DNA of 40,340 nucleotides from assembly GCA_001661245.1 (NCBI GenBank), contig KV454015.1:372001-412340 (forward strand). Reading direction: 5' to 3'. The stretch is from Pachysolen tannophilus NRRL Y-2460. Lineage: Eukaryota. The notes beneath the pieces were generated by a model. That model was given only the letters and a program-made list of their open reading frames with translations, ran no database searches and was not told the DNA's origin. Of the stretch, positions 5,273-40,340 are shown piece after piece (positions within the stretch are counted from its first letter, which is position 1; each line of letters begins with the position of its first letter). Both the position numbers and the translations under genes were made by a program.

Positions 5273-5449
5273 GCTTTTCTCAAGTAGTAGTAGTTTTTTT
5301 ATATTTTTTTTTTTCTTTCACCTTTTTTTTTTAATTCCTATTTTTATCCGTAAAGTGCTGTTTTCACCAACAATATATATATAAATATATATATTTAAAT
5401 ATAAATATAGCTAGGTTAGCTTAATTGATGATAATATATATCGAGGATA

Positions 5450-7005
5450 ATGGATTCCAAGGAACAGGATAGAAAAGAAGTAGAGTCCAATAATAAAAAA
5501 AAAGTTATAATAAGGTGGATTTACTTCTTTCCTTGGTGACAATTTTATTGGGAATTTTATACTATATAAATCAAAGCGGCGCAAGGTTACCATTTGAATT
5601 AATTGAATATTATAGAGAAAATCCTACTGATGATATAATCATTAGAATTCCAGTATATATTTTCTCTGATGAATTTATATTTCCAGATTTGGTTGAAGCT
5701 ACGCAAATCCAAGTGGATTGGGAATTAAAATCCAAGCAATATGAACAAATTGCCAATTATAAAGTTGATTTAAAATATGGTGATTATTTTAAAATTATAA
5801 GTAATGATACAATTTTTAGTGATTTTGAAGCTCATGCTTATTTTGTTAAGATAACTTTATCCAATATTACTGCGATTTTTAATGCTCCAGATAGAAAACA
5901 TACAGAATTATTTTTTAAAGAAGATTCATTGTTTAATAATGATTTACCATTTTTCGTAACACAAACAATTTTATATCATGTTTTCCATACTGAATTAGAT
6001 TTAATTTCACTTGATAATTTTCAAAAAACAATATTTGGTGATGAAACTAAACCTGTTATTCGTCATAATATAACAGATAATGGGTTATCAATAAATTATT
6101 ATAAACCTACTTTAAATTTAAATTTTACAATTTTTGCAGAAGAAAATCAAATTGATGATAATTTGATAGATATATTTCATTATTATTTTAACAAATTATT
6201 TTTTCTGGATGAAGATAATATTCATGATATGTTTCAAAATTATATTGAATTTACTCATGAAATTCATATTGAAAAATTTTCATACAATGATAATGATTTT
6301 TCAAACGAGGAAAATTTTATTAAATCCACTTATAATGATGATTATGAAGTTTATGTCTTAAATGAAAATGATTCATCAATTCCTCCATTTTTAAACAAAG
6401 GTAAAATACATAATGATACTTTAAATTTCGTATTATATATACCTAATTTTTCAACTACTACTCCAAATGAAGAAGATGATTCTATATTTTTTTCAATCGA
6501 TTCCAAATCACCTTTAGTAATAGACACTGATAGAAACATTGATTTGGCATTTTACCAAAACGATGATCTTTTCGATTTCAAAACTAATGGTAATGCATAC
6601 TTGATACCTAGACAAGGAGCTTTAATAGTAATGAATATGGCACTTTTAAATGAATTAAACGAAGAATTGGTTTACAGAAATTTCTTCAAAAATTTTAAAC
6701 TCACTCTACTAGTACTACTAGGATTCCCAAAAGATCCAAAGAATATCATATTAAGAGTGGAAATTGAAACTAGAATACAAATTATTTTAAATCTTTTAAA
6801 AATAGTGGAAAATTTATGGAAAATAACACAACTTCCAGAACAAAAAATCACACAAGACTTGATGAACACCGTCGACGAGATCCTAATGATGAGAGCAGAA
6901 GTAATCCAGGCATTGAGTACCGGCTACAATTGGACATCTCTGTTGTCATTATCCAATAGAGCATTGGAAACAAGCTACAACATTTTGAATGTAACAACTT
7001 CCTAA
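5450..7005 (+). CDS. GPI transamidase subunit Gpi17/PIG-S-like protein; needs a one-base frame correction near the 5' end and lacks the C-terminal TM segment
   Basis: ARLP..I, DIIIRIPVYI, FPDLVEATQIQVD, LNFVLYIP, YLIPRQGALIV, LLGFP resemble Gpi17. ATG at 5450 (MDSKEQ...KKVIIRWIYFFPW*) is out of frame with the long ORF, whose track start at 5515 is GTG. Confidence 0.7.
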
Positions 7006-22474: not shown

Positions 22475-24373
22475 TTATGACAGTGATGATTCTTGATAAA
22501 ATTCAGGCCAGCATTTTGCTTCTTTGCAATAAATCATCAAAATTTTTTCAAAAATTTTCATTAATTCAAATATTTTAAATTTGATTTTAAAATATTCTTT
22601 CAAGACGTTTTTTTCAATCTCGCAAGATAAGAATTTTAAATCATCAGTCAACATTGTTAAACATTTTTGTAATTCACCTAATTCCTGTATATTATAAACG
22701 ATTTCATTTAGTCTTTCTGCTGATGACATTGAGTTAATATTTTTTGAAGCCAGATATCCTAATTCCCCAGTATTATTACTTGAACCAAACAAATTTTTCC
22801 ATTTTGGATTTTTACGCCTTTTAATGGAACTATTTTCTGGATTATAAAAATCTCTAGTTCCATATTCTTCATTATAATTATTGTCTCTAATGTTATTATT
22901 TATTTTCTTATGTTTTTTAAGTTCTAATCTTCTTACTGCTTCTGCTATTGTAGGAGAATCTTCTGCTCCTTTTTTTAATGCAATACTTAATTTTGAATTT
23001 GAATTTTCTGTTTCTATTAATAATTTAGTCCTATTTTGTCTTTTTAAAACAGTGTTTTTAAAATAATGTAATTGAATTTCTTTAAGTTTTCTAAAAGTTA
23101 ATAAATTCATGACAACATGACATTGATTTTTTAAATCTTGTAAAGGTTCTTTAAAATTTATTATAAAATTTTTAATAAAAATTTCTAAATTTATAAAATC
23201 AGAATCAATTGATTGACCAATTTTTTCAACTAAAGAATTATTATCAAATAATGAAAAAACGTTAAAATTTCCACCTAATTCAATTTTTTTCAGTACTAAT
23301 TCTCTTAAATTATTTTCAATTTGTAAAGAAATTTTGTTTAAATTATTTAATTCCATTTTTAAATTATTAAATTTACATTCTAATGGTTTAAATATTTCAC
23401 GATTCAATTTTGAATCAAATGATTTTAATGAACCGACTGGAGGTATAGATAAATATGAATAATATGGGTTTGCTCCTGTTGGATTTGAAGGGGATGATAA
23501 TAATAAATTTGATGGTAATAAAGTGAAAGGTGCGTATTGTAAGACTTCTAACCATACTCTTTCATCTGGATCAATAAATTTTTGAAAAATTATACATGAT
23601 CTTATATCATCATCATTATTCAAATATTTTAAAAAATTATTAAATTTTCTTTTTCTAAAATCTATAATTAAATTATCTCTATTATCACTTCTATTGATAA
23701 TATCTTTAAAAGAATGTTTTTCAGGAATTAATGGTATTATCTTTGTTGGGAAAAATTTTAATAAATTAATTCTTAAAGAATGGAAATCTGAATAACGTCT
23801 TCTTGTATAACGACCATTATTATCATTATTATTATTGATTATTTGAATTATATAAAAAGTAACACCGTTAAATACTTCTGTGGAAACTATTTCAATTTCA
23901 GTCTTCAGTTTCCATTGAACATTATCTCGATTTAAAAACGAACTCTGTCCCAATAAACTATCTGCAGTCTCATTCCCATTCCCATTACTATTATCATTCC
24001 CATTACTAGTACTATTACCAGTAGTATTACCAGTACTATTGTTACCGCCGTTGGTATTGGTATTTTTTTTGTTATTGCTATTGTTTGCCATCTCCCTTTC
24101 AATCAAATCAGCATTACCTGTATCTTCAAAATCATCATGTAAAACTTTAGCACTACTCAATACACTACTATTAAACCCATAAGGATCATTCAATATACTA
24201 TTACTTGCATGATTAGTAAATATCGAATCATGCATTATATTATCATTCACATTATGATTTCCCCCATCATTACCTCCTCCTATATTAGTAAAATAACTAT
24301 CAATATTACTACTATAATTATAATGATCCGATCCAATAAATGGATTGTTATTATCTTCTTCATCAAAATCCAT
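22475..24373 (-). CDS. PX-BAR sorting nexin, Snx41/Atg20 type
   Basis: EEDNNNPF N-terminus, PX motif RRRYSDFHSLR..L..FFPTKIIPLIPEKHS, IIDFRKRKFNNFL, FQKFIDP, BAR-like helical C-terminus; Asn/Gly-rich insert. Confidence 0.85.
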   Translation of the reverse strand: MDFDEEDNNNPFIGSDHYNYSSNIDSYFTNIGGGNDGGNHNVNDNIMHDSIFTNHASNSILNDPYGFNSSVLSSAKVLHDDFEDTGNADLIEREMANNSNNKKNTNTNGGNNSTGNTTGNSTSNGNDNSNGNGNETADSLLGQSSFLNRDNVQWKLKTEIEIVSTEVFNGVTFYIIQIINNNNDNNGRYTRRRYSDFHSLRINLLKFFPTKIIPLIPEKHSFKDIINRSDNRDNLIIDFRKRKFNNFLKYLNNDDDIRSCIIFQKFIDPDERVWLEVLQYAPFTLLPSNLLLSSPSNPTGANPYYSYLSIPPVGSLKSFDSKLNREIFKPLECKFNNLKMELNNLNKISLQIENNLRELVLKKIELGGNFNVFSLFDNNSLVEKIGQSIDSDFINLEIFIKNFIINFKEPLQDLKNQCHVVMNLLTFRKLKEIQLHYFKNTVLKRQNRTKLLIETENSNSKLSIALKKGAEDSPTIAEAVRRLELKKHKKINNNIRDNNYNEEYGTRDFYNPENSSIKRRKNPKWKNLFGSSNNTGELGYLASKNINSMSSAERLNEIVYNIQELGELQKCLTMLTDDLKFLSCEIEKNVLKEYFKIKFKIFELMKIFEKILMIYCKEAKCWPEFYQESSLS

Positions 24374-24780
24374 CGCCCATTATTATCTAATTATATACTA
24401 AAAAAAAAGGAAAAAAAAAAACAAAACAATTAAATAAATAATTATATATTATTTGTTTTGTTTTGTTTTGTATCATTTTCCTTTATTAAAAGATAAAAAA
24501 GATTATCAATTTCTAAAAACAATTCAATTTGCCCTTCTTATTAATTCGATGATGGGCTTGCCCTTTTTTGTTGTTGTTTTTTGCCCCTGATCTTGAGTGG
24601 TGGGGCAAATTTAATTTAAAAAAATCATAAAAATAAACAAAAGGAAGAACAGAGAGAAAAGAAGAACAAAGGGGGAACTTTCTAGTTTATAAAGAATTAA
24701 TATAAATTGAAAGAAAGTATTTTATTTGGATCATCATCAATCAAGAAACTATTAGTTTTTGAAATAAAGGATTGTTGGAA

Positions 24781-25394
24781 ATGTCGACTCGTAAGTGTGA
24801 AAGTTGTTTTTTTTTTTTTTTTTTTTTGGTTCTTTGTTTTACTTGGAACAAAAAAATATTAATATTCAATCTTTTTTGTTTTTTTGTTTTAGCTGTGGTA
24901 AAATCTTCTGATATGGTAAGTTGTTGAAGTCTTTGGTTTTTGTTGCTTTTGATCACTGTTATATTGAGCTAACAAGTTTTTTTTTTTGTTTTGTTGTTGT
25001 TGTTGTTTTAAAGCCAGAAGAGTTACAGTCTAAAGTATTTGAATTGAGTCTAATTGCTGTAAAGAAATTTACAGTTGAAAAAGAAATTGCAAATTACTTG
25101 AAAAAAGAGGTGAGTTTATTTGTTACCAATGTTAATGGAGATTTTAGATCTTAAATACTAATGTTTTAATTTTTCATTAAAAGATGGACGCGCTTTGTGG
25201 TCCTATGTGGCATTGTATTGTCGGTAAGAATTTTGGTAGTTATGTTACACATGGTGAGTATTATTGAAAAAAAAAAAAAAAGTTAATAATGTTTTTTTGC
25301 AAGTTTGTAATTACTAACTATTTTAAAAGAAATGGGGTACTTTATTTATTTTTATATTGATAACTTGGCATTCTTGTTGTTTCGTACGGGCTAA
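24781..25394 (+). CDS. DYN2: Dynein light chain LC8; 5 exons: 24781-24790, 24893-24915, 25014-25109, 25184-25253, 25330-25394
   Basis: Splicing gives 264 nt: MSTPVVKSSDMPEELQSKVFELSLIAVKKFTVEKEIANYLKKEMDALCGPMWHCIVGKNFGSYVTHEMGYFIYFYIDNLAFLLFRTG*. Donors are GTAAGT x2 and GTGAGT x2. Confidence 0.95.
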
Positions 25395-25631
25395 ATAAAA
25401 TTCCAATTTCCTTTTTTTATATATATAAATAGCTTATGCTAAGGAAGTTGTTGTTCAAAAACAGGGAACCCCACAAGGAAGGAAACTAAGAATCATCCAT
25501 AGTACGTAATGAAAGGTTGAATAAAATTTATTAAAAACGTATAGTTATACATATTATAATTTCTGTCCATATTAATATTGTCTTTTTCAGTTTAATATAT
25601 ATATATATATATATATAAATATAATGAAATA

Positions 25632-29779: not shown

Positions 29780-30051
29780 TTTTTTTTTTTTAGTTGATTT
29801 TGACTCTACACCTATTATAAGTTATAATCTTCATAAATTTTCATTTATTGTAAATATTTTTCGAGGCATCACATCTATTTATGAAAAATAGAACGAACGT
29901 TATAATAAAAAAGGAAAAAAAACCACCAAGTCAAAATGAGAAATCCAAAAAATACAAGAAAATACAAGAACAATAAATAACGAAACAAAAAAAAAAAAAA
30001 ATAAAAAAAATCATCCATATCCATTCCAAAAAAGTACTTCATAAAACGAGG

Positions 30052-31200
30052 TTAATTTGTTGTCTTGATCAACTTTAATTTTTTCTCTCTGAAGTCAAAA
30101 AACCGTTTGTCCAAAGAATACATAATCGCATTGTTAGTATCGTTCACCAATGTATCATTGCCATCCAGGCTGTAACTCCCTTCTGATTCACCACGCATTC
30201 CATTTGCAATATCTTTAGGTTGGATATTGTTTTTGCTGTCGTAGAGGTAATCGAAATTATTCGATAATTGATCTATAATTTTCTTAAAGTTTTCCAACTT
30301 TTCTGCATTAAATTTTTTTTCTGCGGTATTGCTATTAAGAATTTCATTAATATTCGAATCTTTCAAATCTATTTCGTCTTCTAAATTTTTGATTCTATAA
30401 CTTAATTGATTAACGATTTTATTGTAATAATCATTGTTGCATGTAGTTGTAGTGACAGAGGATGAAAATTCATTTATTAGATTAATTGAAGTATGCGCAG
30501 TTGATATAGAATTGCATCTGTTTGAAGTTGCATTCTTACCATAACTTCCCTTTCCCATTGAAAATCTTGAATGTTCTGACATCGAAGACAGTGACCTGTT
30601 AGAAACATGACTGGACCTATTGCTACTATCATCAGCATTATCAATATTATTTTTTTTATCGTCGTTTTTGTTATTACTAATATCTAATAAAATTTTATTT
30701 AAATCATCAATAATTTCATCCTTTTCTCTTAATTTATGATTTAATTGAACATTTTGCTGATATAATTCATTATTGGAAACACTCAAATCAATTATTTGAT
30801 CATAAGCTTCAGCAGCTTTCTCACTTATTATTTGAAGTTGTTTCTCTAGAATTAAATTCCTTTCATGTTCACCTCTTAAACTTGAATCCACTAGTAACTT
30901 TGTCTTGCTTAAAACTAGATCCTCCTGGTTTTCATGATCATCACTCACATTATTAGAGAAATCCATTTCGCCTTTAATTTTTTGGAAAGAAGAAACAGTT
31001 GGCTTTGGTGACGGGAAGAATCTTTTCAACGATCTTGATCTCTGAGATAATGAATCGATAACGTGTTCATCATTTGTATCATGATCATGAATTTTAAACC
31101 CACTCAAACTAGTCAAGAGTGATCCTCTGTTATTAAATGAACTCGATGACTTTCTCTTTGAATCTCCTTTACTTGTGTTTTTTTTATTGAAAAATTTCAT
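30052..31200 (-). CDS. Uncharacterised coiled-coil, Ser/Asn-rich protein
   Basis: 382 aa ORF with an ATG start and two heptad-rich segments (LEKQLQIISEKAAEAYDQIIDL...; VNQLSYRIKNLEDEI). No family recognised. Confidence 0.75.
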   Translation of the reverse strand: MKFFNKKNTSKGDSKRKSSSSFNNRGSLLTSLSGFKIHDHDTNDEHVIDSLSQRSRSLKRFFPSPKPTVSSFQKIKGEMDFSNNVSDDHENQEDLVLSKTKLLVDSSLRGEHERNLILEKQLQIISEKAAEAYDQIIDLSVSNNELYQQNVQLNHKLREKDEIIDDLNKILLDISNNKNDDKKNNIDNADDSSNRSSHVSNRSLSSMSEHSRFSMGKGSYGKNATSNRCNSISTAHTSINLINEFSSSVTTTTCNNDYYNKIVNQLSYRIKNLEDEIDLKDSNINEILNSNTAEKKFNAEKLENFKKIIDQLSNNFDYLYDSKNNIQPKDIANGMRGESEGSYSLDGNDTLVNDTNNAIMYSLDKRFFDFREKKLKLIKTTN

Positions 31201-34200
31201 TCTAATATTATTTTATCTTATTTTTTTCAACTTTTGAATTAGAATTCATTAATAGCAGTTTTCCATTGATAACTATATCTTTTTTGCCATCTATTTAATT
31301 TACTATTAGTTAAAATATTTAATAACCCCGTGAAATTTTGAAAACACTTGAGCAAAGAGTTTTTTTTTTAAACCCATTTTCCAACTGAACACGAGAAGAA
31401 CTCCCCTACAAAATCACTTATTTATGCATATCAATATTGTTCTGTAAGATAAATTGCGGCTTAATTCACTGATGAGCAGTGAGTACTTCATTATGTTAAC
31501 TTTTAAGGGATCAAAAACAATTAAAATAAACGGAAAGGGTAAAAAAGGGGACCGAGATGTGTGACGCGACTCGGTATAAAAAACTCCTTTTGGTCGTGTC
31601 TGAATTAATACTTTTCCAAAAGAGGAAACTTTTTGGAAAAATTCAATGCAGCGTATTTTAAGTTACAAATAAAAAAATCATTGCATATAGTTAAACAAAC
31701 TGAGTGAGTGAGTGCATCGATAGAAGCTGGATGATGAATAGTTAGTTCCTGTCTATTTATTTATATTGATGATCATCATTTATTCTTCTTCACTTATGGT
31801 CTAGTTTTTTTTTTGTAGAAAGAACTTTATTTGAGCTTAGAGTTTTTATTTAAGTTTTACTGTTGAATATAGCAGGAGAATTTTCAAAATAATTATCGTT
31901 AACTAGGTTTTCTCAGCTTACAAGTTAATGCATGATCATATATTATCACACTCACTTCTTTGGTCTCTTTCAGTGGTAGCTTAAGAAAGTCTATACATTT
32001 GAAGTTCTTTTATAATTAATATAATAACTTAAATTCAGCATTTTTTTTTTTCTGGATTCGTTACCTTAATCAAATGGTTTCATATTTAGAAAATCCACCC
32101 ACATCTTACTAGAGTTTTTTTTTTCACTTCTCTCTTAATTATCTATTCATCTCTTCTAAAATTTATGCTGGTCGAAACTTAAATTCTTCCTTCCGCTCCT
32201 CATTGCTACTACCATTTGATAAATCTTCCTTTCCCTTTTTTAAAAACTTGACTATTCAAAAGTAATAAATTTCGCAATAAATACTGCTTGCTGCCTGTGG
32301 TTATTTATTTTTAATTATTCTAAACTACGTAGACTGATTTTTCAGTTACTTAATCATTTCCAAGTGCATTGTTTCGCAATTATTATTTTTAATAATCCAT
32401 CACTTTAATTTGTCTTAATTTTTTTTCTAATGAAATTCCTTTAATCTATTTTGCAAACTATATAAAAAGAATGAGATGTATTCTAAAATACCCTAGAGAA
32501 AAGAGGACATCACCTAAAACTTCTTATTAGGCGTTTTCCTTATATTATTAAGTTATTACTCAATCACGTTACGAAAAGTCCAAACCTTAATTTCATTTGA
32601 ATAGATATGTAAGTCTTCCGAAATAAATTGTCTACTAATGTGTTGTCTAAGTTTTACCTAAAGAACCTCAAATAAATAGTTTTATGCATTCGTACCAAAG
32701 CCGACTTCCGCAAGAAAATTCACATGGTTTAGATTCTATTTGTGAAGCAAAACTAAATAACATATGTTTGATCACAATTGAATGAACCAACCTAATCTCA
32801 AAAATTAATATACCTTCACACCTTCTCTGTAAGAAAGTCAAAAAAGATAATAGCTTTCCACTTGGCTTCTTCTTGAACCAGGCGCATGATACAGTCATTA
32901 TAATACTAAAAAACCTACTTGTAATGTTATTTTTCTTTTATCACTATTTATTAATTATTAGGTTCAATTCTACCAATCAAGAATGAATAAGACAAAAAAA
33001 TAAAAATAAAAAGTCAGAGCAAATAAACCGGTCATTTTCTACTAAAAGTGTGACACGAAATGTTGTAGTCTAACCGCATCTACCATTCAAACTGTAAAAC
33101 AACACTAGCTATTTTCAACGTCCATGAAAAAAAGCTCAAAAATATTTCTATTTGAAAGTTTGAAAGAAAACGTTACATCTGGCAACCACTAGTTAAAAAT
33201 AAATTTCTATTTACTTCAGAAGAAATCTCCAAGAGATGTTCCGGGACATAAAAAAAACTTTGATATTTAAGAAAGAAAAAAGTATCGTTAAATCCACTCT
33301 ATTCTTCTTTTTGAAAAAACTCAAGGGAATACGAATGATATTAGCAAAGTAATTCCGGTCTGCAGTATTCTTTCAGTTTCTACTCGAAATCCTATTAAAG
33401 GGTTTCCCTTTAAATTGAGTGCATAAATCCAAATAAATAATTTCTTTTGCTAAAGCCAAAATACTAACTCTTCTGGTTATACACTTCCTCATTCTCATCT
33501 CTAATTCAATAACTAAAATTGTATGTGTACAATTAAGCATATGTTAAAAGCGTCAGGAAATTCCACCTGATTCAAACAATTTTTCTGAACAAAATATCTA
33601 CAACTCCGATAACATAACATTTGAAGAAATCCTTTGGAAGATTTCATCTTATTTCTTTGCTCCCATTTTTTTCGTACTTATTAATTTCTAATTTGGAGCG
33701 CCGCAGCTGTTATCGTAACTTATCTTTCCCTTAACCTGACTGCTTTATTTATTAAACTTCTTCGAATTTTGAGGCTCCATTAAGAATAATTTCAAATACA
33801 GAATGTAGAATGAAGGTAACGATGAAGTTCAGCTTACGTTAGCTAGTTGTGATGATCACTTTTTTTTTACCAACTGCTCATATTTCAGTAGCACCCTTAG
33901 CAAAAACAATTTGCTCCTTACAAACATAAAAAAATTACCTGCGCTCTATTACTTAGTAATGACTGATACTTTATCAAATATTTGACAGTTGAGACTACTT
34001 GTGTATGAAATTAAGATATAGGAGAGTCGTGAGGACTTCGCTGACCTCAATGTTTCTATTCAAAGGAAAATTCTAACTGATATGTTGTTATTTGGAAACA
34101 TTGCAGGTATCATCCCTACATTAACTGATTAGATTGTATTTTCCTGCCATAAATCAAATATGAAGAGCTCCTAACCAGTAATATAAAATTAAAACCTCAA

Positions 34201-37200
34201 TACTTTAAATAACTTTGCCATTTTACAAAAGCTGTGAGGTAAAAGAAAAATATTTGTTTTTAGTGAAAGTTGGGATTAGATACTCTTAAACAAGAAAAAC
34301 ACTTCTAAATGGTTTTAATATTCGTGAGGATTAAAAGAGCATTGCTTTACAGCTATGCTTCTCTAGGGAGTCAACAATTTTTAAGATGTTTTAACTATTG
34401 TGAATAAATAAGATGCATTAAAAGATTAGTTTGATACTTTTTTCTATAAATCATTTATTCTTTTTAAAGTTATGTCAGTCCGATAGTAAATCAATTCAAT
34501 GCAAATTACTTTCAACTTAGATTCGAACTGTTTGCCACTTTTCTCTCTTGGGATTCGAGTAGTTAATCAACCAATTGAGAGCCCAATACAAAGTATTCGG
34601 ATTTATAATATTCTCTATATAAAATGATATGGGAACAATTTGCAGCAAAAAAATTCAAGTTTTATTTACGTTCTATGTAATCTTAGTTTTCTACATGTCT
34701 TCATGAAATTGATTTAAATTGCAGTTAATAAAGTTGTGACCGAAGCAGAGGACATATGAAATGCTGAAAATCAGTAATTTGTTTTTGTTTCGGTAATTAC
34801 AGTGTATTCTCTATATATTGAAATGGAAATGGGACAGATTCTGTAACTTGAAGCCGAAATAAATAGACCTTAAGAAAAAAGCATTAGCGCTTATGAAGAA
34901 GTTTTGATTTGAATGAATAGTTTTCTTTCGAAGAATAGCGAATATTTCTACATCCGGGATTTTTTTACAACTCAGTCTTTGTCGTAGTAGCTCTTTCTTT
35001 GAATAAGGCATTAATCTTTAATTGTAGCAAAACCAATTAAAGGACCATTGACACTAAAGGAATTAAACTAGTGCTACTAGTTTCAAACTTAAGAACATGA
35101 AATATTTTCTTTTTTTCTCTTTCGCGAAGACTTAAACTTCAAGCTCATTTTCGTATGTTATAATTTTTTATTGTTTATTCTGGAAATGAAAAATGGAGAT
35201 GAAAGATTTTTAGATGGGAAACTAATGCTTTAATATTAATGTCTTTCAACAAAATATAGATTTAAGGTTTAGCTTGGTTGCAGTTCTCTAGTCTGCTGTT
35301 TAAGGTACAACCAGCTGAATACGGTGTATGCGAATAACGCCTTAGTGACTTGACCAAAGTACTATGTCTATAGAGTCTGTTTAAATTTAAAGCGAATTTA
35401 AGATATCGGTTGATCAACGAACCACTAGATTGAGCAAACAATCCAGGACCAAGTGGTGTTAAGTGTTATTATCCTAAAAACTAGTACATCGTTTTGATAA
35501 ATAGCCGAATCAAAATATTATCTTCTTTTAAAATAATGTCATAGTTGAATCTCATTACATAAATAACTTTCAAAGAAGTATTTATTTCCTATTATCTTTG
35601 TAATGCTCCTAATGTTTATCGGAGGAAACGGAAATCGGATCTTGTGATAAATTAGCTGCTGATAAAGACTGGGATATGTTTATTGAGATTTGAGAAGAAA
35701 GTAACTCTATTTAGGAGCAACTTGAGTTAAGACATTTCTTGTGATTCCATGAACTTCTTTTTAGCTAGTTAGTTTGCAATTGAATTACTTAGATAATAAA
35801 ACAATATTTATGGGTAGATTTGAGAATACCAACTTTCCTTAAAACGAAACAACAGCTTCTTTCTGGCTAAAACGAAGTTTTGTTCTCAATGAGGAAAATA
35901 ATCAATGTAATGCATTATGATTATTACTATTGCTTACAGCTCTATTTTGTTTAGATTAGTGGTTAGGAGCCTTGTTAAAATCCATATTCTTTTTTGTAAA
36001 AAGTAGCTAAAATAAACGTAGAATAAAGTGAATAGGCATGGTTCTACTTTGGAAATTATATGTAAATTAAAGAATTGAAATTTTGGACAAAAAATATTCG
36101 AGTTTGTGCTTGGTGGTGACGAGTTTTAACAAAAGAGGAGGAAAATTATAACGTTCATATATATCACATGTAGCTTTAGATGCGGTAATTAAGACATTAA
36201 TTATTTCATAGACGCTGTTATGTTTTTGTTCATTACAGTTTAGTAAGATTTTCGGCCTACAAGTTGATTTCATATTGAAATTGATGATTAATTCGTCGTG
36301 CTGACTTTGTAGTCCTAAAGACCAGAAGTTGAATAAAAGCTTATTCATGTTTACAAAGTTGGCGCCTTTTGTGGAATGCAGCAGAAACTGAAAAACTGTT
36401 AATCATTATCTTTATAGAATTATTCAACTTTAAACTAAGAGATAGTATGACAATGTGTTGTTATCATGTCATTTATGAGATATAGCGTTTTCTTTTTTTT
36501 TTTTTTTATAAAAAGTATTTAGGTAAAACCTTATTGCTAAGTTTTGTAACATTACTTTTTAATCACAATATATGTTTGCAAAATGTTATCACAGAAAGCA
36601 GATTAAATTGATGAAGACCTTTTTTAACTTTGTTTCATTTAAAGCGTTTTTTAATTATTGATCTGTAATCAGGGAAATCCGTTGAAATTCAATAATAAAA
36701 TACATGTTTATTGAAGCCAATTTTTAAAAGGAAGGAGCGAATCTTACTGAATTTTATATGAATATATCGAATGAAGATATTTTGACTATTTATTACCTTC
36801 TTCTTTTTTTTGGATACAGATTGAAGTTGAAATATTTAATTTAGAAATCATGAAGATTGTGAATTGAAAAATCATCAGCTAAAAGCAACGGTATCCAAAG
36901 AGAAAAATCAGTAATTGAGATAGATTTGAAATTGTATTGCTTGGAAGTTCTTAAAACGCAAATAGTTATAATTACAATCATTTTTTCAGAACTTATGAAA
37001 TTTGATTTAATTATTTCATGATCATAAGTTATCTATAAAGAGCATAACCATATTTATTTATTTATTTAGAGTATTTGTTTTGTTAATTGGATAATAAATA
37101 TTATTTAGCTATAGTTAGTATAGTAAGATCTTTTTGATTGTAAGTTTTTTTTTAGAAAGATAATGATAATTCATCATGATATTGGATAAAGTGGAATATA

Positions 37201-38548
37201 AATTGTAAGATTCTAAAGGCAATTGTTTTGCTTTTTCAATTATTAAAGGAAAAGTGGTAGCTGCTGAGCAGAATTTTTTAGATAAAATTTGTTTTTTCCA
37301 TTTTTCTGAGAGAGTGATGTAGAATTGTATATAATTCAGATCTCTAAATAAGAAGAGGTTTCGTATTCAGCTATTGTTCAGGAACGAGGTTATTTATAGT
37401 AGTATCTTAATTGCTGTTAAGTCGGTTGTGATGATAGATAATTGGAGAGTTTAAAATACGATTCAGATCACCTTATTGAAATCAATACACTTTTCTCTTG
37501 ACTAAAAGGAAATTTTCTTGTAAACCAAAAAATGAAAACGCTAAAGTTTCAAGACGATTTTATAAGAAAATTTCTCGCTAAAATTGTCCCAGAGTTCAAA
37601 ACCTTTTGTCATTAATACCTACTTTTTTTAAGATTGTCTGGTACGTAGATGTCATTGCTTGTTCTATGAAAAATAGTTTTTCAGAGATTGGAGAAATGTT
37701 AGTTAAGAGAATTAGTGCCAAATTCAAATCATATGCACAATTTCATTAAAAAAAAAAAGGCCGTTGTTTATTGAAAGCACCCAAATTAAATATAGTTGAG
37801 ATTGATAAAAGTATTGAAACATGAAAATTATATTTAATTTTAAGAATTTTTAGGATGAGTAAGGTGTTATAATCATTATTCAAGTGACTGTCAACTAAAA
37901 AATGAAAAACACCTTACTAATTGTTAAGATTTTTTTTGAAGCAGAGATGTAAAAAGTTTTGAATCTTTTTTACGTAAGTTATTTCAGAAAATACAACTAA
38001 ACAGTGTAATAGAAGAGAACTCCCATTTTTAAAACAAGATATCTGAGAAAAGAAGCAAAAATGGAATTATTTCTTTGATAAAAGTTTGAACTTTTATTTT
38101 TCTAGATAAACTAATCACATACAGATTTCTTGCAGTAGATCTTGCAAAGTTATTTATTAATCCCATTTTGATAGTTAATTATTTTAGTGATTCAGTGTAG
38201 CAAGTGACGTTGAGTGAGATACGACCAAGTTTCTAAATATATTTTTACTGAAAATTACAGAAGAAATTTGAAATAGTATTTTATTCTATAGGGAAAAGTA
38301 AGTAACAAAAAAATATTTATTAATTACTCCACTAAATTTACTGAAAAGTTCAAGGAGAAATTGAATTTTTAATTTAGAAAACAAAATAAGAATAAGAATG
38401 ATAGATGTCTCTATTATTATTGCTAAAAACTTAAAACAAAATTAAAAATGTTACGTAACACCTTAGCGCCAGATTCACTACTTATTTATGTCCCGTAAAC
38501 CTGATTTCTAGTCAATGAAGACAACAATAACTAATTTAGACTTTAAAT
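31201..38548. other. 7.3 kb gene-free interval, candidate regional centromere or replication origin
   Basis: No ORF above 93 aa, whereas other complete intergenic gaps here are mostly 25-460 bp. The + strand is C>G on the left and G>C on the right. Confidence 0.5.
31613..31628. promoter_or_regulatory. Mcm1/ECB-like site TTTCCAAAAGAGGAAA
   Basis: Resembles the Mcm1 consensus, lies about 410 bp upstream of the 31200 ATG, and has an MCB-like ACGCGA at 31564-31569. Confidence 0.35.
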
Positions 38549-39089
38549 TCAATTCCAAACATTTTTAAATAAATCATCATCTAGTCCATTCAATGTATTT
38601 GAATTCTTATTTTTTGAAACACTGTTGGACCATACGTTGTTTGAAGTTGATGAAGAGATGGAGGAAGTAGTACTTCCATTGTTAGCTATGTTAGAAAATG
38701 GTTGATGAGCTTGGAATTGTTGCTGTGGTTGCTGAAATGTAGTGTTTGCCATATTGTATTGCTGTTGGGGCAGTTGTTTTTGTTGTAAATAAAGTGCAGG
38801 AGATGATGCAGTTGGAGTTGAATACAACGACAAAATGGATTTTTTCAAATCAGGTCTTGTTGAGGTTGACGATACTATTGAATCCAGTGGCGACTTTTGT
38901 GAGTTTTTTGATTTATTTTCTCTTAATGAACTTTCCAAATTTGGTAATGAGTTTGATTGTTGCTGTTGAAAAACAGATACATTCGTATCCAGTGATGTAT
39001 TTGTTGAAGATAGAGAAGATGGCATACCAAAATCCAAATCTAGCAATTGATTTGATTGTTGCCGCAGCAGCAGATGTTGCTTCAGTTGC

Positions 39090-39147
<58 letters not shown>

Positions 39148-39658
39148 GATGTTGCAGTTTAAGATTTCCAATCGATTGTTTATTCGTTGATATTTCTTTC
39201 TTTGGTAAATTTGGAACTTGTTGTTTAGTATTACCATTTCCAACATTTATAGTTCTTGGATCAGGAATTTGAGGTGACAGAACCCATTTCTTTAAATCAT
39301 ATTTTGTTCTTATGAAATTTTCAATTTTACTATCATCTGGAATATATCCTTTTGGTAAACCATCTTCCCAATAAAAATTCGCCTTTTCATTACCCCACAT
39401 AACCATTGATTTTGTTTGTTCTTCAGTCCATAAATCTAAATCCACTGATCTAACTTTTGAAATATGAGTACCCATACTTCTATGAATACCAGAACATCTA
39501 ATACAAATAAACACACCTAAGTTCCAAGAAGCCCATCTTGGGTGGGCAGCTGTCTTACAGTCAGCACAGGTTTTATTACCTTGATCTTTTAATAAAGTTT
39601 TCAATATTTGTTGATTTTCAAGATGATTTCTCGGTTGCGACCTAGTACGAGCACTCAT
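38549..39658 (-). CDS. AGE2: ArfGAP zinc-finger protein (Age2/SMAP type)
   Basis: CADC...PRWASWNLGVFICIRCSGIHRSMGTHISKVRSVDLD, KIENFIRTKY, RPDLKKSILSLY, LLDLDF, C-terminal DDLFKNVW. Confidence 0.95.
39086..39148 (-). repeat. (CAA)n polyglutamine tract in AGE2
   Basis: About 19 uninterrupted GTT units on the + strand, encoding a run of about 22 Gln. Confidence 0.92.
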
Positions 39659-39821: not shown

Positions 39822-40340
39822 GATAAATTATTCATTGAAAGTCTTCTTCGCCAAGTGTGTATTTTCCCAGTTTAGTCTTTTTTCTTTTTCACATCAAAAT
39901 TCCAGAGTTAAATAGCATGTGATACACTACTTTTATCTTTTTTTATCAAAACTATTATTATATTTATATAGAAAGCCATTTTTATTAGTTAAAATAGACG
40001 CTAAAAATGGGATCTCTTGGATCATTCAAACTTCTGGCACTTTTCAACTGCTCCCAATAATCAATACAAAAAATATAAAAGTTCAAAAGAATAAATAAAT
40101 GATTAAATAAAAACAAAAAAAATCAAAAAAAAAATAAGCTTAGTGGAGTTTTTTTTTTTTTAAAAAAAAAGAAAAAAAAAAAAAATAAAAAGAATATGGG
40201 TTAAAATAGACAACACAAAATACAACAACAACAACAACAACAACAACACAGACAAACCATCCCAAAAAAAAAAAAAAGAAAAAGTTTATAGAGATATCAG
40301 CAAATAAAAGAAACCAATAAAAAAAAAGAAAAAGTAAAAA

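What the first reader, a model, noticed from the sequence alone, without database searches (positions are those of the whole stretch)
31201..38548. 7.3 kb gene desert with a sharp G/C skew inversion: candidate unique-sequence regional centromere or constitutive origin
Seen: by far the largest gap in the window, with no credible ORF and no long tandem or inverted repeat that I could find. Hand counts on 60-nt lines give C>G on the left (32101 C13/G2, 32761 C13/G4, 33481 C13/G4, 33901 C13/G4) and G>C on the right (34381 C3/G9, 35161 C1/G13, 35641 C4/G15, 36061 C4/G14, 37801 C1/G9). The switch lies at about 33.95-34.25 kb. Known: Candida albicans-type regional centromeres lie in multi-kb gene-free unique DNA, and skew inversions there have been attributed to long-lived early origins. 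Inference: this may be a centromere without point-CEN elements, Komagataella-like inverted arms or obvious Ty clusters. An alternative is divergent non-coding transcription, since 5' leaders in this window are also G-rich on the sense strand.
Basis: partly seen in the sequence, partly recalled or inferred. Interest (0 to 1): 0.75.

Follow-up and report, generated by a model that had tools for sequence, protein, structure and literature searches.

The report
Probable yeast centromere gap, unproven
A 7.3-kb stretch with no genes or repeats, whose G/C bias flips in the middle, is probably this yeast chromosome's centromere, but sequence alone cannot prove it or say what made the bias.

Summary
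Window 31201-38548 has no ATG-ORF of 100 aa or more, no period-3 coding signal, no Pfam, Rfam or tRNA match and no repeat above chance. It is single copy in public contigs. It is about 16 times longer than any other true spacer in the window. G-C skew is -0.22 over 32001-34000 and +0.15 over 34001-38548. The cumulative minimum is at 34226, and 0 of 5000 shuffles reach the observed value.

The best reading (about 0.55) is a unique-sequence regional centromere like those of Candida albicans. The skew polarity and the raised GC content match that type. Earlier notes of this scan, which I did not check, name the genome Pachysolen tannophilus and report five similar 6-9 kb deserts, each on a different scaffold from this one. 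So the scan has found this kind of locus before, on other DNA of the same genome.

The cause of the skew is unresolved. Sense strands of genes and 5' leaders here are also G-rich, and a divergent gene pair in the window gives an equal V-shaped skew. I found no gene at the flanks that adjoins a centromere in other yeasts. No RNA, Cse4 or Hi-C data could be used. My searches found no published centromere for this yeast order.

The parts
31201..38548 (.). Gene-free, repeat-free, single-copy desert of 7348 bp: the candidate regional centromere.
   Evidence: No ORF of 100 aa or more. Period-3 signal has median 0.91 and maximum 2.32, against a gene median of 7.65 and minimum of 2.62. 0 of 58 frames of 35 aa or more reach a Pfam cut-off. 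0 tRNAs. 0 Rfam matches at gathering score. No repeats above shuffles. Contigs of 4 runs from one sample cover 30019-36479 and 36521-39076 with 0 other letters, at depth 73-79, the same as the flanks. GC is 28.4%, against 24.8% in other spacers.
31951..33950 (.). Left arm, C>G on the + strand.
   Evidence: Every 250-bp window here has negative skew, from -0.08 to -0.34. 28 of 34 lines of 60 nt have C>G.
33951..34250 (.). Skew switch zone: the candidate origin or divergence point.
   Evidence: The cumulative G-C minimum is at 34226. The 250-bp skew is +0.01 at 33951 and +0.21 at 34201. GC dips to 0.26 at 34201-34450, between windows of 0.29-0.34. That dip is within noise.
34201..38450 (.). Right arm, G>C on the + strand.
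   Evidence: 14 of 17 windows of 250 bp have positive skew, up to +0.44. 50 of 72 lines of 60 nt have G>C.
31451..31950 (.). G-rich island at the left edge, an exception to the V shape. It probably belongs to the promoter region of the neighbouring - strand gene.
   Evidence: Skew is +0.16 and +0.21 in the two 250-bp windows. No Rfam match here. The promoter assignment is inference.
30052..31200 (-). Left flanking gene: a 382-aa protein with no recognisable relatives. Its 5' end faces the desert.
   Evidence: ORF. No homologue at E<=0.001 among proteins of 210-669 aa. No Pfam family at its cut-off.
38549..39658 (-). Right flanking gene: a SMAP/AGE2-type ArfGAP. Its 3' end faces the desert.
   Evidence: Pfam ArfGap, E = 4.2e-40. 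The best solved relatives are SMAP1B and SMAP1-like at 127 and 124 bits, against 80 bits or less for other ArfGAP subfamilies. The equation of SMAP with yeast AGE2 is recalled.

Best explanation
The desert is most likely the centromere of this chromosome. It would be a small regional centromere on unique DNA, specified epigenetically by Cse4 nucleosomes rather than by a sequence motif, as in Candida albicans and C. dubliniensis.

Shown here:
- It is a 7.35-kb single-copy stretch with no coding signal, motif, repeat or transposon relic.
- It is about 16 times longer than any other true spacer in a very compact window.
- Its GC-skew switch has the polarity expected if replication forks leave a fixed point near 34.0-34.2 kb.
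- Its GC content is above that of other non-coding DNA.

Inferred, not shown:
- Cse4 sits on part of it.
- A constitutive early origin at the switch point produced the skew by leading/lagging-strand mutation bias.
- Genes are excluded because kinetochore chromatin does not tolerate them.

The identity of the locus and the cause of its skew are separate claims. I give about 0.55 to 'centromere'. Given that it is a centromere, I give roughly even odds to replication against low-level divergent transcription as the cause of the skew.
For: 1. Size. The gap is 7348 bp. The other 16 spacers are 25-1258 bp, and the two longest hold unlisted exons.

2. Non-coding. Period-3 signal has median 0.91 and maximum 2.32 in 22 desert windows, against median 7.65 and minimum 2.62 in 24 gene windows. 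0 of 58 frames of 35 aa or more reach a Pfam cut-off, and 5 weak matches at E of 0.0016-0.097 are all below cut-off. The 111-aa frame has 1 hit among 1.84 billion representatives, and that hit is a repeat-protein artefact.

3. Unique and single copy. No look-alike stretch in the scan's index.

4. Skew. It runs from negative to positive, with z = 10.4 and 0 of 5000 shuffles reaching it. This is the direction Koren et al. used to pick out C. albicans centromeres.

5. GC content. It is 28.4%, against 24.8% in other spacers and 19.4% at 4-fold sites. Koren et al. report raised GC at skewed centromeres.

6. AT skew. In the core 32451-37450 it is opposite in sign and weaker: +0.046 on the left and -0.046 on the right, with 46 of 5000 shuffles reaching it. 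Koren et al. describe the same pattern.

7. Earlier notes of this scan, which I did not check, list five other 6-9.3 kb deserts in the same genome. Each is on a different scaffold from this window, and several lie beside RER1, RRP6 or URM1.

8. Hession et al. 2025 find that centromere location is conserved across three yeast orders. They name URM1 and the interval beside DOM34 as centromere neighbours (PMC12711049, sections read).
Against: 1. No defining property of a centromere was tested.

2. The skew is not special in size. A V of 0.43 with +/-2-kb arms lies at 24.55 kb, against 0.32 at the desert. That site is the divergent PX-protein/DYN2 gene pair.

3. Sense strands here are G-rich even where not under protein constraint. 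Skew is +0.27 in 5' flanks of 100 nt (12 of 16 genes), +0.20 at third codon positions and +0.115 at 4-fold sites. Two divergent non-coding transcripts would give the same picture.

4. Over the whole arms the AT skew does not reverse: -0.024 on the left and -0.012 on the right. I chose the core interval in which it does reverse after seeing the profile.

5. The skew was not seen to extend into the flanking genes. Third positions of + and - strand genes have equal sense skew (0.20 against 0.19). The gene on the right has + strand skew of -0.42, opposite to the arm beside it. The data are sparse.

6. Neither flank carries a gene I know to adjoin a centromere in other yeasts. The left block (GPI17, TAF11, PPM1, SSN2, DYN2, OST6, THI74-like) matches S. 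cerevisiae YDR424-443 and YML015-019, which is 15-19 genes from CEN13 by recalled systematic names. The immediate neighbour of that ancestral centromere, RRP6, is reported beside a different desert on another scaffold.

7. Ola et al. 2020 judged 3 of 9 skew-predicted centromeres of Lodderomyces doubtful. Two of those lay in strongly transcribed regions (PMC7263194, passages read).
Confidence: 0.55

Rival explanations
1. A long non-coding or regulatory region. Two divergent non-coding transcription units start near 34.0-34.2 kb, about 2 kb leftward on the - strand and about 4.2 kb rightward on the + strand. Alternatively it is a very long promoter of the 382-aa gene. The skew is then the usual sense-strand G excess of transcribed DNA in this genome.
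For: Sense-strand G>C holds in 5' flanks (+0.27; 12 of 16 genes), at third codon positions (+0.20) and at 4-fold sites (+0.115, with AT skew -0.029). The arms show +0.15 to +0.22 in the matching orientation. An equal V lies at a divergent gene pair. The promoter of the 382-aa gene faces the desert. Two skew-predicted Lodderomyces centromeres lay in strongly transcribed regions.
Against: No other spacer in this 40-kb window exceeds about 460 bp once hidden exons are counted, so a 7-kb regulatory region would be extreme. GC of 28.4% is well above other spacers and 4-fold sites. No Rfam family matches: 0 at gathering score, and 2 chance-level hits at E of 0.14 and 0.82. Unchecked earlier notes place similar deserts on scaffolds other than this one, at least one (RER1) with the same polarity and several beside ancestral centromere neighbours. 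Transcription and centromere function do not exclude each other.
Confidence: 0.2
2. Decayed remains of former genes or of a mobile element. Two old, oppositely oriented coding units have lost their frames but keep coding-like GC content and sense-strand G excess.
For: GC content of 28.4% is close to coding DNA at 29.7%. Skew sign and size resemble coding sense strands, mean +0.108. A/T runs of 8 or more occur at 1.63 per kb, between coding DNA (0.66) and spacers (3.93).
Against: No period-3 signal anywhere (maximum 2.32, against a gene minimum of 2.62). 0 of 58 frames match a Pfam family at its cut-off, including reverse transcriptase, integrase and Gag. The 111-aa frame has no real homologue. 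The arm skew of 0.15-0.22 is larger than the mean coding skew of 0.108, the opposite of what decay predicts. The purine-type A>T bias of coding strands (+0.085) is absent. There are no LTR-like repeats and no multi-copy depth.
Confidence: 0.1
3. A constitutive replication origin in a large spacer that is not the centromere.
For: The polarity of the GC switch, and the weak opposite AT skew in the core, fit forks leaving about 34.1 kb. Koren et al. also found two internal non-centromeric origins with weaker skew in C. albicans.
Against: An origin needs a few hundred bases, which does not explain 7.3 kb without genes. In C. albicans strong two-sided skews were almost confined to centromeres, and telomere skews were one-sided. 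This window is internal.
Confidence: 0.07
4. The desert holds real but unrecognised genes, either small proteins or a long structured RNA such as telomerase RNA. In that case it is not empty.
For: A 111-aa frame in AT-rich DNA is somewhat longer than expected; my rough estimate is about 0.08 such frames expected by chance, computed by hand and not by a tool. Yeast telomerase RNAs are long and escape Rfam (recalled).
Against: No homologues. No Pfam match. No Rfam match. No coding periodicity. Even a 2-kb RNA gene would leave more than 5 kb empty.
Confidence: 0.05

Closest known systems
Candida albicans / C. dubliniensis small regional centromeres with a centromeric early origin (Koren et al. 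2010, PMC2924309, passages read; described in the introduction of Hession et al. 2025)
   Same: Gene-free unique DNA of 4-18 kb with no shared sequence or motif. A GC skew that switches from negative to positive. GC content above other non-coding DNA. A weaker AT skew of opposite sign, seen here only in the core.
   Different: Cse4, ORC and early replication are shown there and untested here. The organism is said to belong to another order (Alaninales, from unchecked earlier notes). The AT reversal here is marginal. The skew was not seen outside the gap.
Skew-predicted centromeres of Lodderomyces elongisporus, Clavispora lusitaniae and Candida fructus (Koren 2010; Narayanan et al. 2021, PMC8262905, passages)
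   Same: They were predicted from ORF-free unique DNA with GC and AT skews, once per chromosome.
   Different: The Clavispora/C. auris type is GC-poor, a deep GC trough, and only 2-3 kb long. This desert is GC-richer than other spacers and 7.3 kb long. 3 of 9 Lodderomyces predictions were later doubted.
Pichiales centromeres: Komagataella phaffii inverted repeats, Ogataea polymorpha Ty5-like clusters, Kuraishia capsulata 200-bp motif (summarised in Hession et al. 2025)
   Same: They belong to a related yeast order and are multi-kb gene-poor loci.
   Different: No inverted repeat. No retroelement relic or LTR-like repeat. A motif shared between chromosomes could not be tested without the other chromosomes.

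Membership tests
Small regional (epigenetic, unique-sequence) centromere, C. albicans type | Cse4/CENP-A nucleosomes and kinetochore assembly on the locus | not testable with these tools
   No ChIP or Hi-C data are available. No genome is held for this window.
Small regional (epigenetic, unique-sequence) centromere, C. albicans type | Multi-kb gene-free region of unique sequence | tested here: met
   (non-coding). (no repeats). (single-copy depth; one contig spans 30019-36479).
Small regional (epigenetic, unique-sequence) centromere, C. albicans type | Exactly one such locus per chromosome | not testable with these tools
   The genome is not held. Unchecked earlier notes list five similar deserts, each on a scaffold other than this one.
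Small regional (epigenetic, unique-sequence) centromere, C. albicans type | GC skew switching from negative to positive, with raised GC content (Koren 2010) | tested here: met
   Skew is -0.221 then +0.148, with 0 of 5000 shuffles reaching the V statistic. GC is 28.4%, against 24.8% in spacers and 19.4% at 4-fold sites. An equal V occurs at a divergent gene pair, so the feature is not specific.
Small regional (epigenetic, unique-sequence) centromere, C. albicans type | Weaker AT skew of opposite sign switching at the same point | tested here: inconclusive
   In the core 32451-37450 it is +0.046 then -0.046, with 46 of 5000 shuffles reaching it. I chose that interval after seeing the profile. 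Over the whole arms it is -0.024 and -0.012, with no reversal.
Small regional (epigenetic, unique-sequence) centromere, C. albicans type | Early-firing origin or ORC binding at the switch | not testable with these tools
   No replication data.
Conserved ancestral centromere location (Hession et al. 2025) | Flanked by genes that adjoin centromeres in other yeast orders | tested here: not met
   The flanks are a protein without recognisable relatives, a THI74-like transporter, OST6 and an AGE2-type ArfGAP. None is a centromere neighbour in S. cerevisiae by recalled systematic names. None of six names searched occurs in the text or held supplements of that paper.
Point centromere (CDEI-CDEII-CDEIII) | CDEI-like box, AT-rich spacer of about 80 bp and a CCGAA-containing CDEIII | tested here: not met
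   A pattern scan of both strands of the whole window found 0 sites. The motifs were recalled.
Inverted-repeat centromere (K. phaffii, C. tropicalis, C. parapsilosis) | Kb-scale inverted repeat around a central core | tested here: not met
   No long inverted pair lies inside the desert. The best non-self BLAST hit is 44.0 bits, against a shuffle maximum of 45.4.
Ty5-like / LTR-cluster centromere | Retroelement genes or relics, and repeated LTRs | tested here: not met
   0 of 58 frames hit RT, integrase or Gag families. No direct repeats above chance. Depth equals the flanks and the contig is unbroken over 6.46 kb.
AT-rich trough centromere (Clavispora / C. auris type) | Locus is a local GC minimum | tested here: not met
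   The desert has 28.4% GC, higher than other spacers at 24.8%.

The most novel reading that the evidence does not exclude
This desert and the similar ones noted on other scaffolds are the full set of centromeres of a CUG-Ala yeast (order Alaninales). All would be unique-sequence, epigenetically specified, and each built around its own constitutive origin. Centromere-origin coupling of the C. albicans kind would then exist outside Serinales, by retention or by convergence. It would add a further transition to the Ty5-cluster ancestral state that Haase et al. 2026 inferred by parsimony (PMC13017519, passages and Supplementary Data 3 read).
Probability: 0.4. Interest if true: 0.65.

Novelty: new member of a known kind. 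Interest (0 to 1): 0.5.

Why it matters
Centromere structure is known for only a few of the twelve budding-yeast orders. Hession et al. 2025 say most orders remain underinvestigated. My searches found no mapped centromere for Pachysolen or for Alaninales. Searches used the full species name. One search used the genus name, but none of the 25 papers it listed (of 12,356 matching at least two terms) contains it. Supplementary Data 3 of Haase et al. 2026 lists no Alaninales species.

A candidate with coordinates makes the question directly testable by one Cse4 ChIP or Hi-C experiment. It would also give a CEN element for stable plasmids in a xylose-fermenting yeast.

It is also a clean test case for an old ambiguity: whether centromeric skews come from replication or from transcription.

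Tried and rejected
- Whole genome: none is held, so a genome-wide ranking of spacers and skews was impossible.
- RNA evidence: no RNA holder was listed by the look-up of sequencing runs. The 4 runs found come from one sample and one study and are contigs, so expression could not be assessed.
- Related loci: two metagenome scans, with the THI74-like protein and the ArfGAP, found no relative. The scan index has no look-alike stretches.
- Rfam at permissive threshold gave 2 matches far below their gathering scores: snoZ182 at 25.9 against 80 bits, and REN-SRE at 18.3 against 41 bits. I treat both as chance.
- The 111-aa frame has one hit. It is a 2339-aa internally repetitive protein in which a 29-residue match of about 38% identity recurs many times. 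I rejected it as an artefact.
- Short dyad symmetries (arm 7, loop 20 or less) number 33, against 26.3 +/- 6.2 in local shuffles; 30 of 200 shuffles reach 33. There is no enrichment.
- Skew at silent sites of flanking genes is too sparse to show a replication effect.
- CUG decoding check: the two CTG codons I could place in alignments to solved structures align with Met (TAF11 position 174) and Asn (PPM1 position 222). This is uninformative, so the clade assignment rests on earlier notes.
- Synteny in print: none of AGE2, OST6, THI74, TAF11 and LRS4 occurs in Hession 2025, in the text or in the 3 held supplements. AGE2, OST6, THI74 and TAF11 do not occur in Coughlan 2016. No paper holds three of six such terms.
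- Gordon 2011 gave no centromere table in the passages found. Riley 2016 is not held.
- In the Hanseniaspora gene table of Haase 2026, YPT7, RRP6 and CDC5 carry ids g000248-g000257, while OST6 is g003291 and AGE2 is g001840. If the ids follow genome order, which I assume, these two genes are not beside that centromere.
Full report
THE OBSERVATION

The window is an AT-rich, very compact budding-yeast sequence. Most 500-bp windows have 23-35% GC. Between the ORF ending at 31200 and the ORF starting at 38549 there is no ATG-ORF of 100 aa or more in any frame. The longest stop-to-stop frame is 111 aa.

The other 16 spacers between listed ORFs measure 25-1258 bp. The two longest are not real spacers:
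- 24374-25631 carries three exons of the dynein light chain gene DYN2 on the + strand. One exon matches LC8 and Dyn2 chains at E of about 7e-8.
- 5273-6228 is mostly the open upstream part of the PIG-S/GPI17 frame, which lacks an ATG there and so must be spliced.

The largest true spacer is about 460 bp, so the desert is about 16 times longer.

G-C skew is -0.221 over 32001-34000 and +0.148 over 34001-38548. The cumulative minimum lies at 34226. The V statistic is 315, against 100.7 +/- 20.7 for shuffled G/C labels; 0 of 5000 shuffles reach it. It also survives shuffling of 100-, 250- and 500-bp blocks: 0, 2 and 4 of 3000 reach it.

One blemish remains. 31451-31950 at the left edge is G-rich.

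WHAT THE DESERT IS NOT

- Not coding. Period-3 power has median 0.91 and maximum 2.32 in 22 overlapping 900-bp windows. In 24 gene windows the median is 7.65 and the minimum 2.62.
- No protein family. None of the 58 stop-to-stop frames of 35 aa or more reaches a Pfam cut-off. Five weak matches (E of 0.0016-0.097) are to unrelated families, and none is a retroelement family.
- No homologue of the longest frame. An exhaustive phmmer search of the 111-aa frame against 1.84 billion representatives gave one hit. BLASTP shows it to be a 29-residue resemblance repeated along an internally repetitive 2339-aa protein.
- No RNA gene found. There are no tRNAs and no Rfam match at gathering score in the whole window. 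The permissive search gave only two far-sub-threshold matches.
- No repeats. There is no long direct or inverted repeat. The best non-self BLAST alignment of the desert against the window is 44.0 bits, and 20 shuffles gave a mean of 40.2 and a maximum of 45.4.
- No point-centromere pattern. A CDEI / AT-spacer / CDEIII scan found nothing on either strand.
- No excess of short dyad symmetries.
- Not an assembly artefact or a collapsed repeat. Contigs of four public runs, all from one sample and so not independent of the assembly, cover 30019-36479 and 36521-39076 with no differing letters. Their word depth is 73-79, the same as the flanking genes. They break only at a T15 run. An unbroken 6.46-kb contig at single-copy depth also argues against LTRs or other elements shared with other loci.

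COMPOSITION

The desert has 28.4% GC. That is close to coding DNA (29.7%) and clearly above the other spacers (24.8%) and 4-fold degenerate sites (19.4%). A/T runs of 8 or more occur at 1.63 per kb, between coding DNA (0.66) and spacers (3.93).

Over the whole arms the AT skew is near zero and does not reverse. In the core 32451-37450 it is +0.046 left and -0.046 right of the switch. That is opposite in sign to the GC skew, and 46 of 5000 shuffles reach it. I chose that interval after looking at the profile, so this result is weak.

COMPARISON WITH WHAT IS KNOWN

Koren et al. 2010 (PMC2924309, passages read) describe all eight C. albicans centromeres in these terms:
- unique intergenic DNA with a GC skew that changes from negative to positive;
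- a weaker AT skew of opposite sign;
- GC content raised above other non-coding DNA, with a small dip at the crossing;
- ORC binding and the earliest replication in S phase.

The desert meets the sequence part of this description. Its polarity, size and raised GC fit, and its AT reversal fits only marginally. Its 7.35 kb lies within the 4-18 kb quoted for C. albicans gene-free centromere regions (Hession et al. 2025, introduction).

It does not fit the other yeast centromere types listed there: point, inverted-repeat, Ty5/LTR-cluster or AT-rich trough.

WHY THE SKEW ALONE PROVES LITTLE

In this window the sense strand of transcribed DNA is G-rich whether or not it codes:
- +0.27 in the 100 nt upstream of start codons (12 of 16 genes);
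- +0.20 at third codon positions;
- +0.115 at 4-fold sites, with AT skew -0.029.

A V of 0.43 with +/-2-kb arms sits at the divergent PX-protein/DYN2 pair near 24.5 kb, against 0.32 at the desert. Two divergent non-coding transcripts starting near 34.1 kb would therefore reproduce the pattern in sign and size.

I could not see the skew continue into the flanking genes, as a replication bias should. Plus- and minus-strand genes have the same third-position sense skew (0.20 and 0.19). The ArfGAP gene on the right has + strand skew of -0.42. The counts are small.

Ola et al. 2020 (PMC7263194, passages) considered three of Koren's nine Lodderomyces predictions doubtful. Two of them lay in strongly transcribed regions.

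SURROUNDINGS AND SYNTENY

By Pfam the window encodes ATG5, an SGT1/ecdysoneless-family protein, PIG-S/GPI17, TAF11, a 1207-aa M16 peptidase, a Methyltransf_28 protein, PPM1 (LCM), Med13/SSN2, a PX protein, an OST3/6 protein, an EamA (THI74-like) transporter and an ArfGAP.

- The OST protein is nearer OST6 (106 bits) than OST3 (54 bits).
- The ArfGAP is of the SMAP/AGE2 type.
- The 382-aa gene next to the desert has no detectable relatives.

By recalled S. cerevisiae systematic names the left block corresponds to YDR424-YDR443 and its sister YML015-YML019. The sister block lies 15-19 genes from CEN13. AGE2 is YIL044C. None of these genes is an immediate centromere neighbour.

RRP6 is the immediate neighbour of the ancestral centromere that gave CEN13 and CEN15. 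This is recalled, and it is consistent with YPT7, RRP6 and CDC5 having adjacent ids in the Hanseniaspora table. Earlier notes report RRP6 beside a different desert on another scaffold.

So synteny gives this particular desert little support. Hession et al. 2025 found that centromere locations are largely conserved across three orders, with rare moves. That makes the missing synteny a mild argument against. Their study did not include this order.

EARLIER NOTES OF THIS SCAN

These are AI notes that I did not check. They name the genome Pachysolen tannophilus, a CUG-Ala yeast, and list five other gene-free, repeat-free deserts:
- 6.75 kb beside RER1;
- 7.9 kb;
- 6.8 kb between RRP6 and ADP1;
- 9.3 kb beside URM1;
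- about 6 kb beside a tRNA.

Each is marked as lying on a scaffold other than this window's. At least the RER1 desert has the same C-rich to G-rich polarity, and the URM1 note reports a mirror-image base bias. No second desert is noted on this window's scaffold. However, only 113 windows of the genome carry notes.

If these notes hold, six deserts of like size, each on a different scaffold from this window, in an assembly of nine pieces is the pattern expected of centromeres. It is not the pattern expected of scattered regulatory regions. This carries much of my 0.55, and it is the part I could not verify.

LITERATURE

Two searches with the full species name combined with centromere or karyotype terms found no mapped centromere for Pachysolen. 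A third search used the genus name with Hi-C, Cse4 and assembly terms, but none of the 25 papers it listed, of 12,356 matching at least two terms, contains the genus name.

Krassowski et al. 2019 and Dujon & Louis 2017 mention the species only for mating-type switching and genome statistics (passages).

Haase et al. 2026 name Alaninales once, in a list of orders. Their table of Ty5-cluster positions contains no Alaninales species (passages and Supplementary Data 3). Their large supplementary figure file could not be read and may bear on this.

VERDICT

The most likely identity is a C. albicans-type small regional centromere: a new member of a known kind in an order where none is described, and the sixth such candidate this scan has raised in this genome.

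The cause of the skew, replication from a fixed origin or divergent transcription, cannot be settled from sequence. One Cse4 ChIP-seq or Hi-C experiment would settle the identity. Stranded RNA-seq and replication timing would settle the mechanism.

Noticed in passing
window 24900-25400 (+): An unlisted, intron-split DYN2 (LC8 dynein light chain) gene. Three short exons lie in the 1258-bp 'spacer', divergent from the PX-domain gene at 22475-24373. One exon matches LC8 and yeast Dyn2 chains at E of about 7e-8 to 1e-6.
   Followed up: partly
window 5497-7005 (+): The PIG-S/GPI17 frame is open for 502 codons, but its first ATG is at 6229. The listed ORF matches only profile positions 287-465 of 514. 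The gene must start in a short upstream exon and be spliced.
   Followed up: partly
window 30052-31200 (-): A 382-aa, Ser/Asn-rich protein that looks coiled-coil, next to the desert. It has no homologue at E<=0.001 and no Pfam family. By position beside the THI74-like gene it could be a fast-evolving LRS4 counterpart (recalled gene order YDR438W-YDR439W). Nothing tested supports that.
   Followed up: partly
window 24400-24600: The strongest V-shaped GC-skew switch in the window with +/-2-kb arms (0.43) lies at a divergent gene pair, not at the desert. Gene orientation alone can make such patterns in this genome.
   Followed up: yes
window 29779, 29914, 37747: Contigs of all four public runs carry one extra base behind each of these places. 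37747 is at a homopolymer run (A11 at 37748). The nature of the other two sites was not checked; 29779 is the last base of the stop codon of the THI74-like ORF and 29914 lies in the spacer after it. These may be one-base errors in the assembly. None changes a listed ORF.
   Followed up: no
window 39075-39160 (- strand gene): The AGE2-type ArfGAP carries a run of about 24 glutamines, encoded by a CAA/CAG repeat. A similar CAA-rich stretch lies about 1.05 kb away at 40203-40255 in inverted orientation, outside the ORF.
   Followed up: no
window, all 18 listed ORFs: 4-fold degenerate sites have only 19.4% GC, with sense-strand G>C (+0.115) and slight T>A (-0.029). The 100 nt upstream of start codons have sense G>C of +0.27. 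This is a genome-wide strand asymmetry tied to transcription direction.
   Followed up: partly
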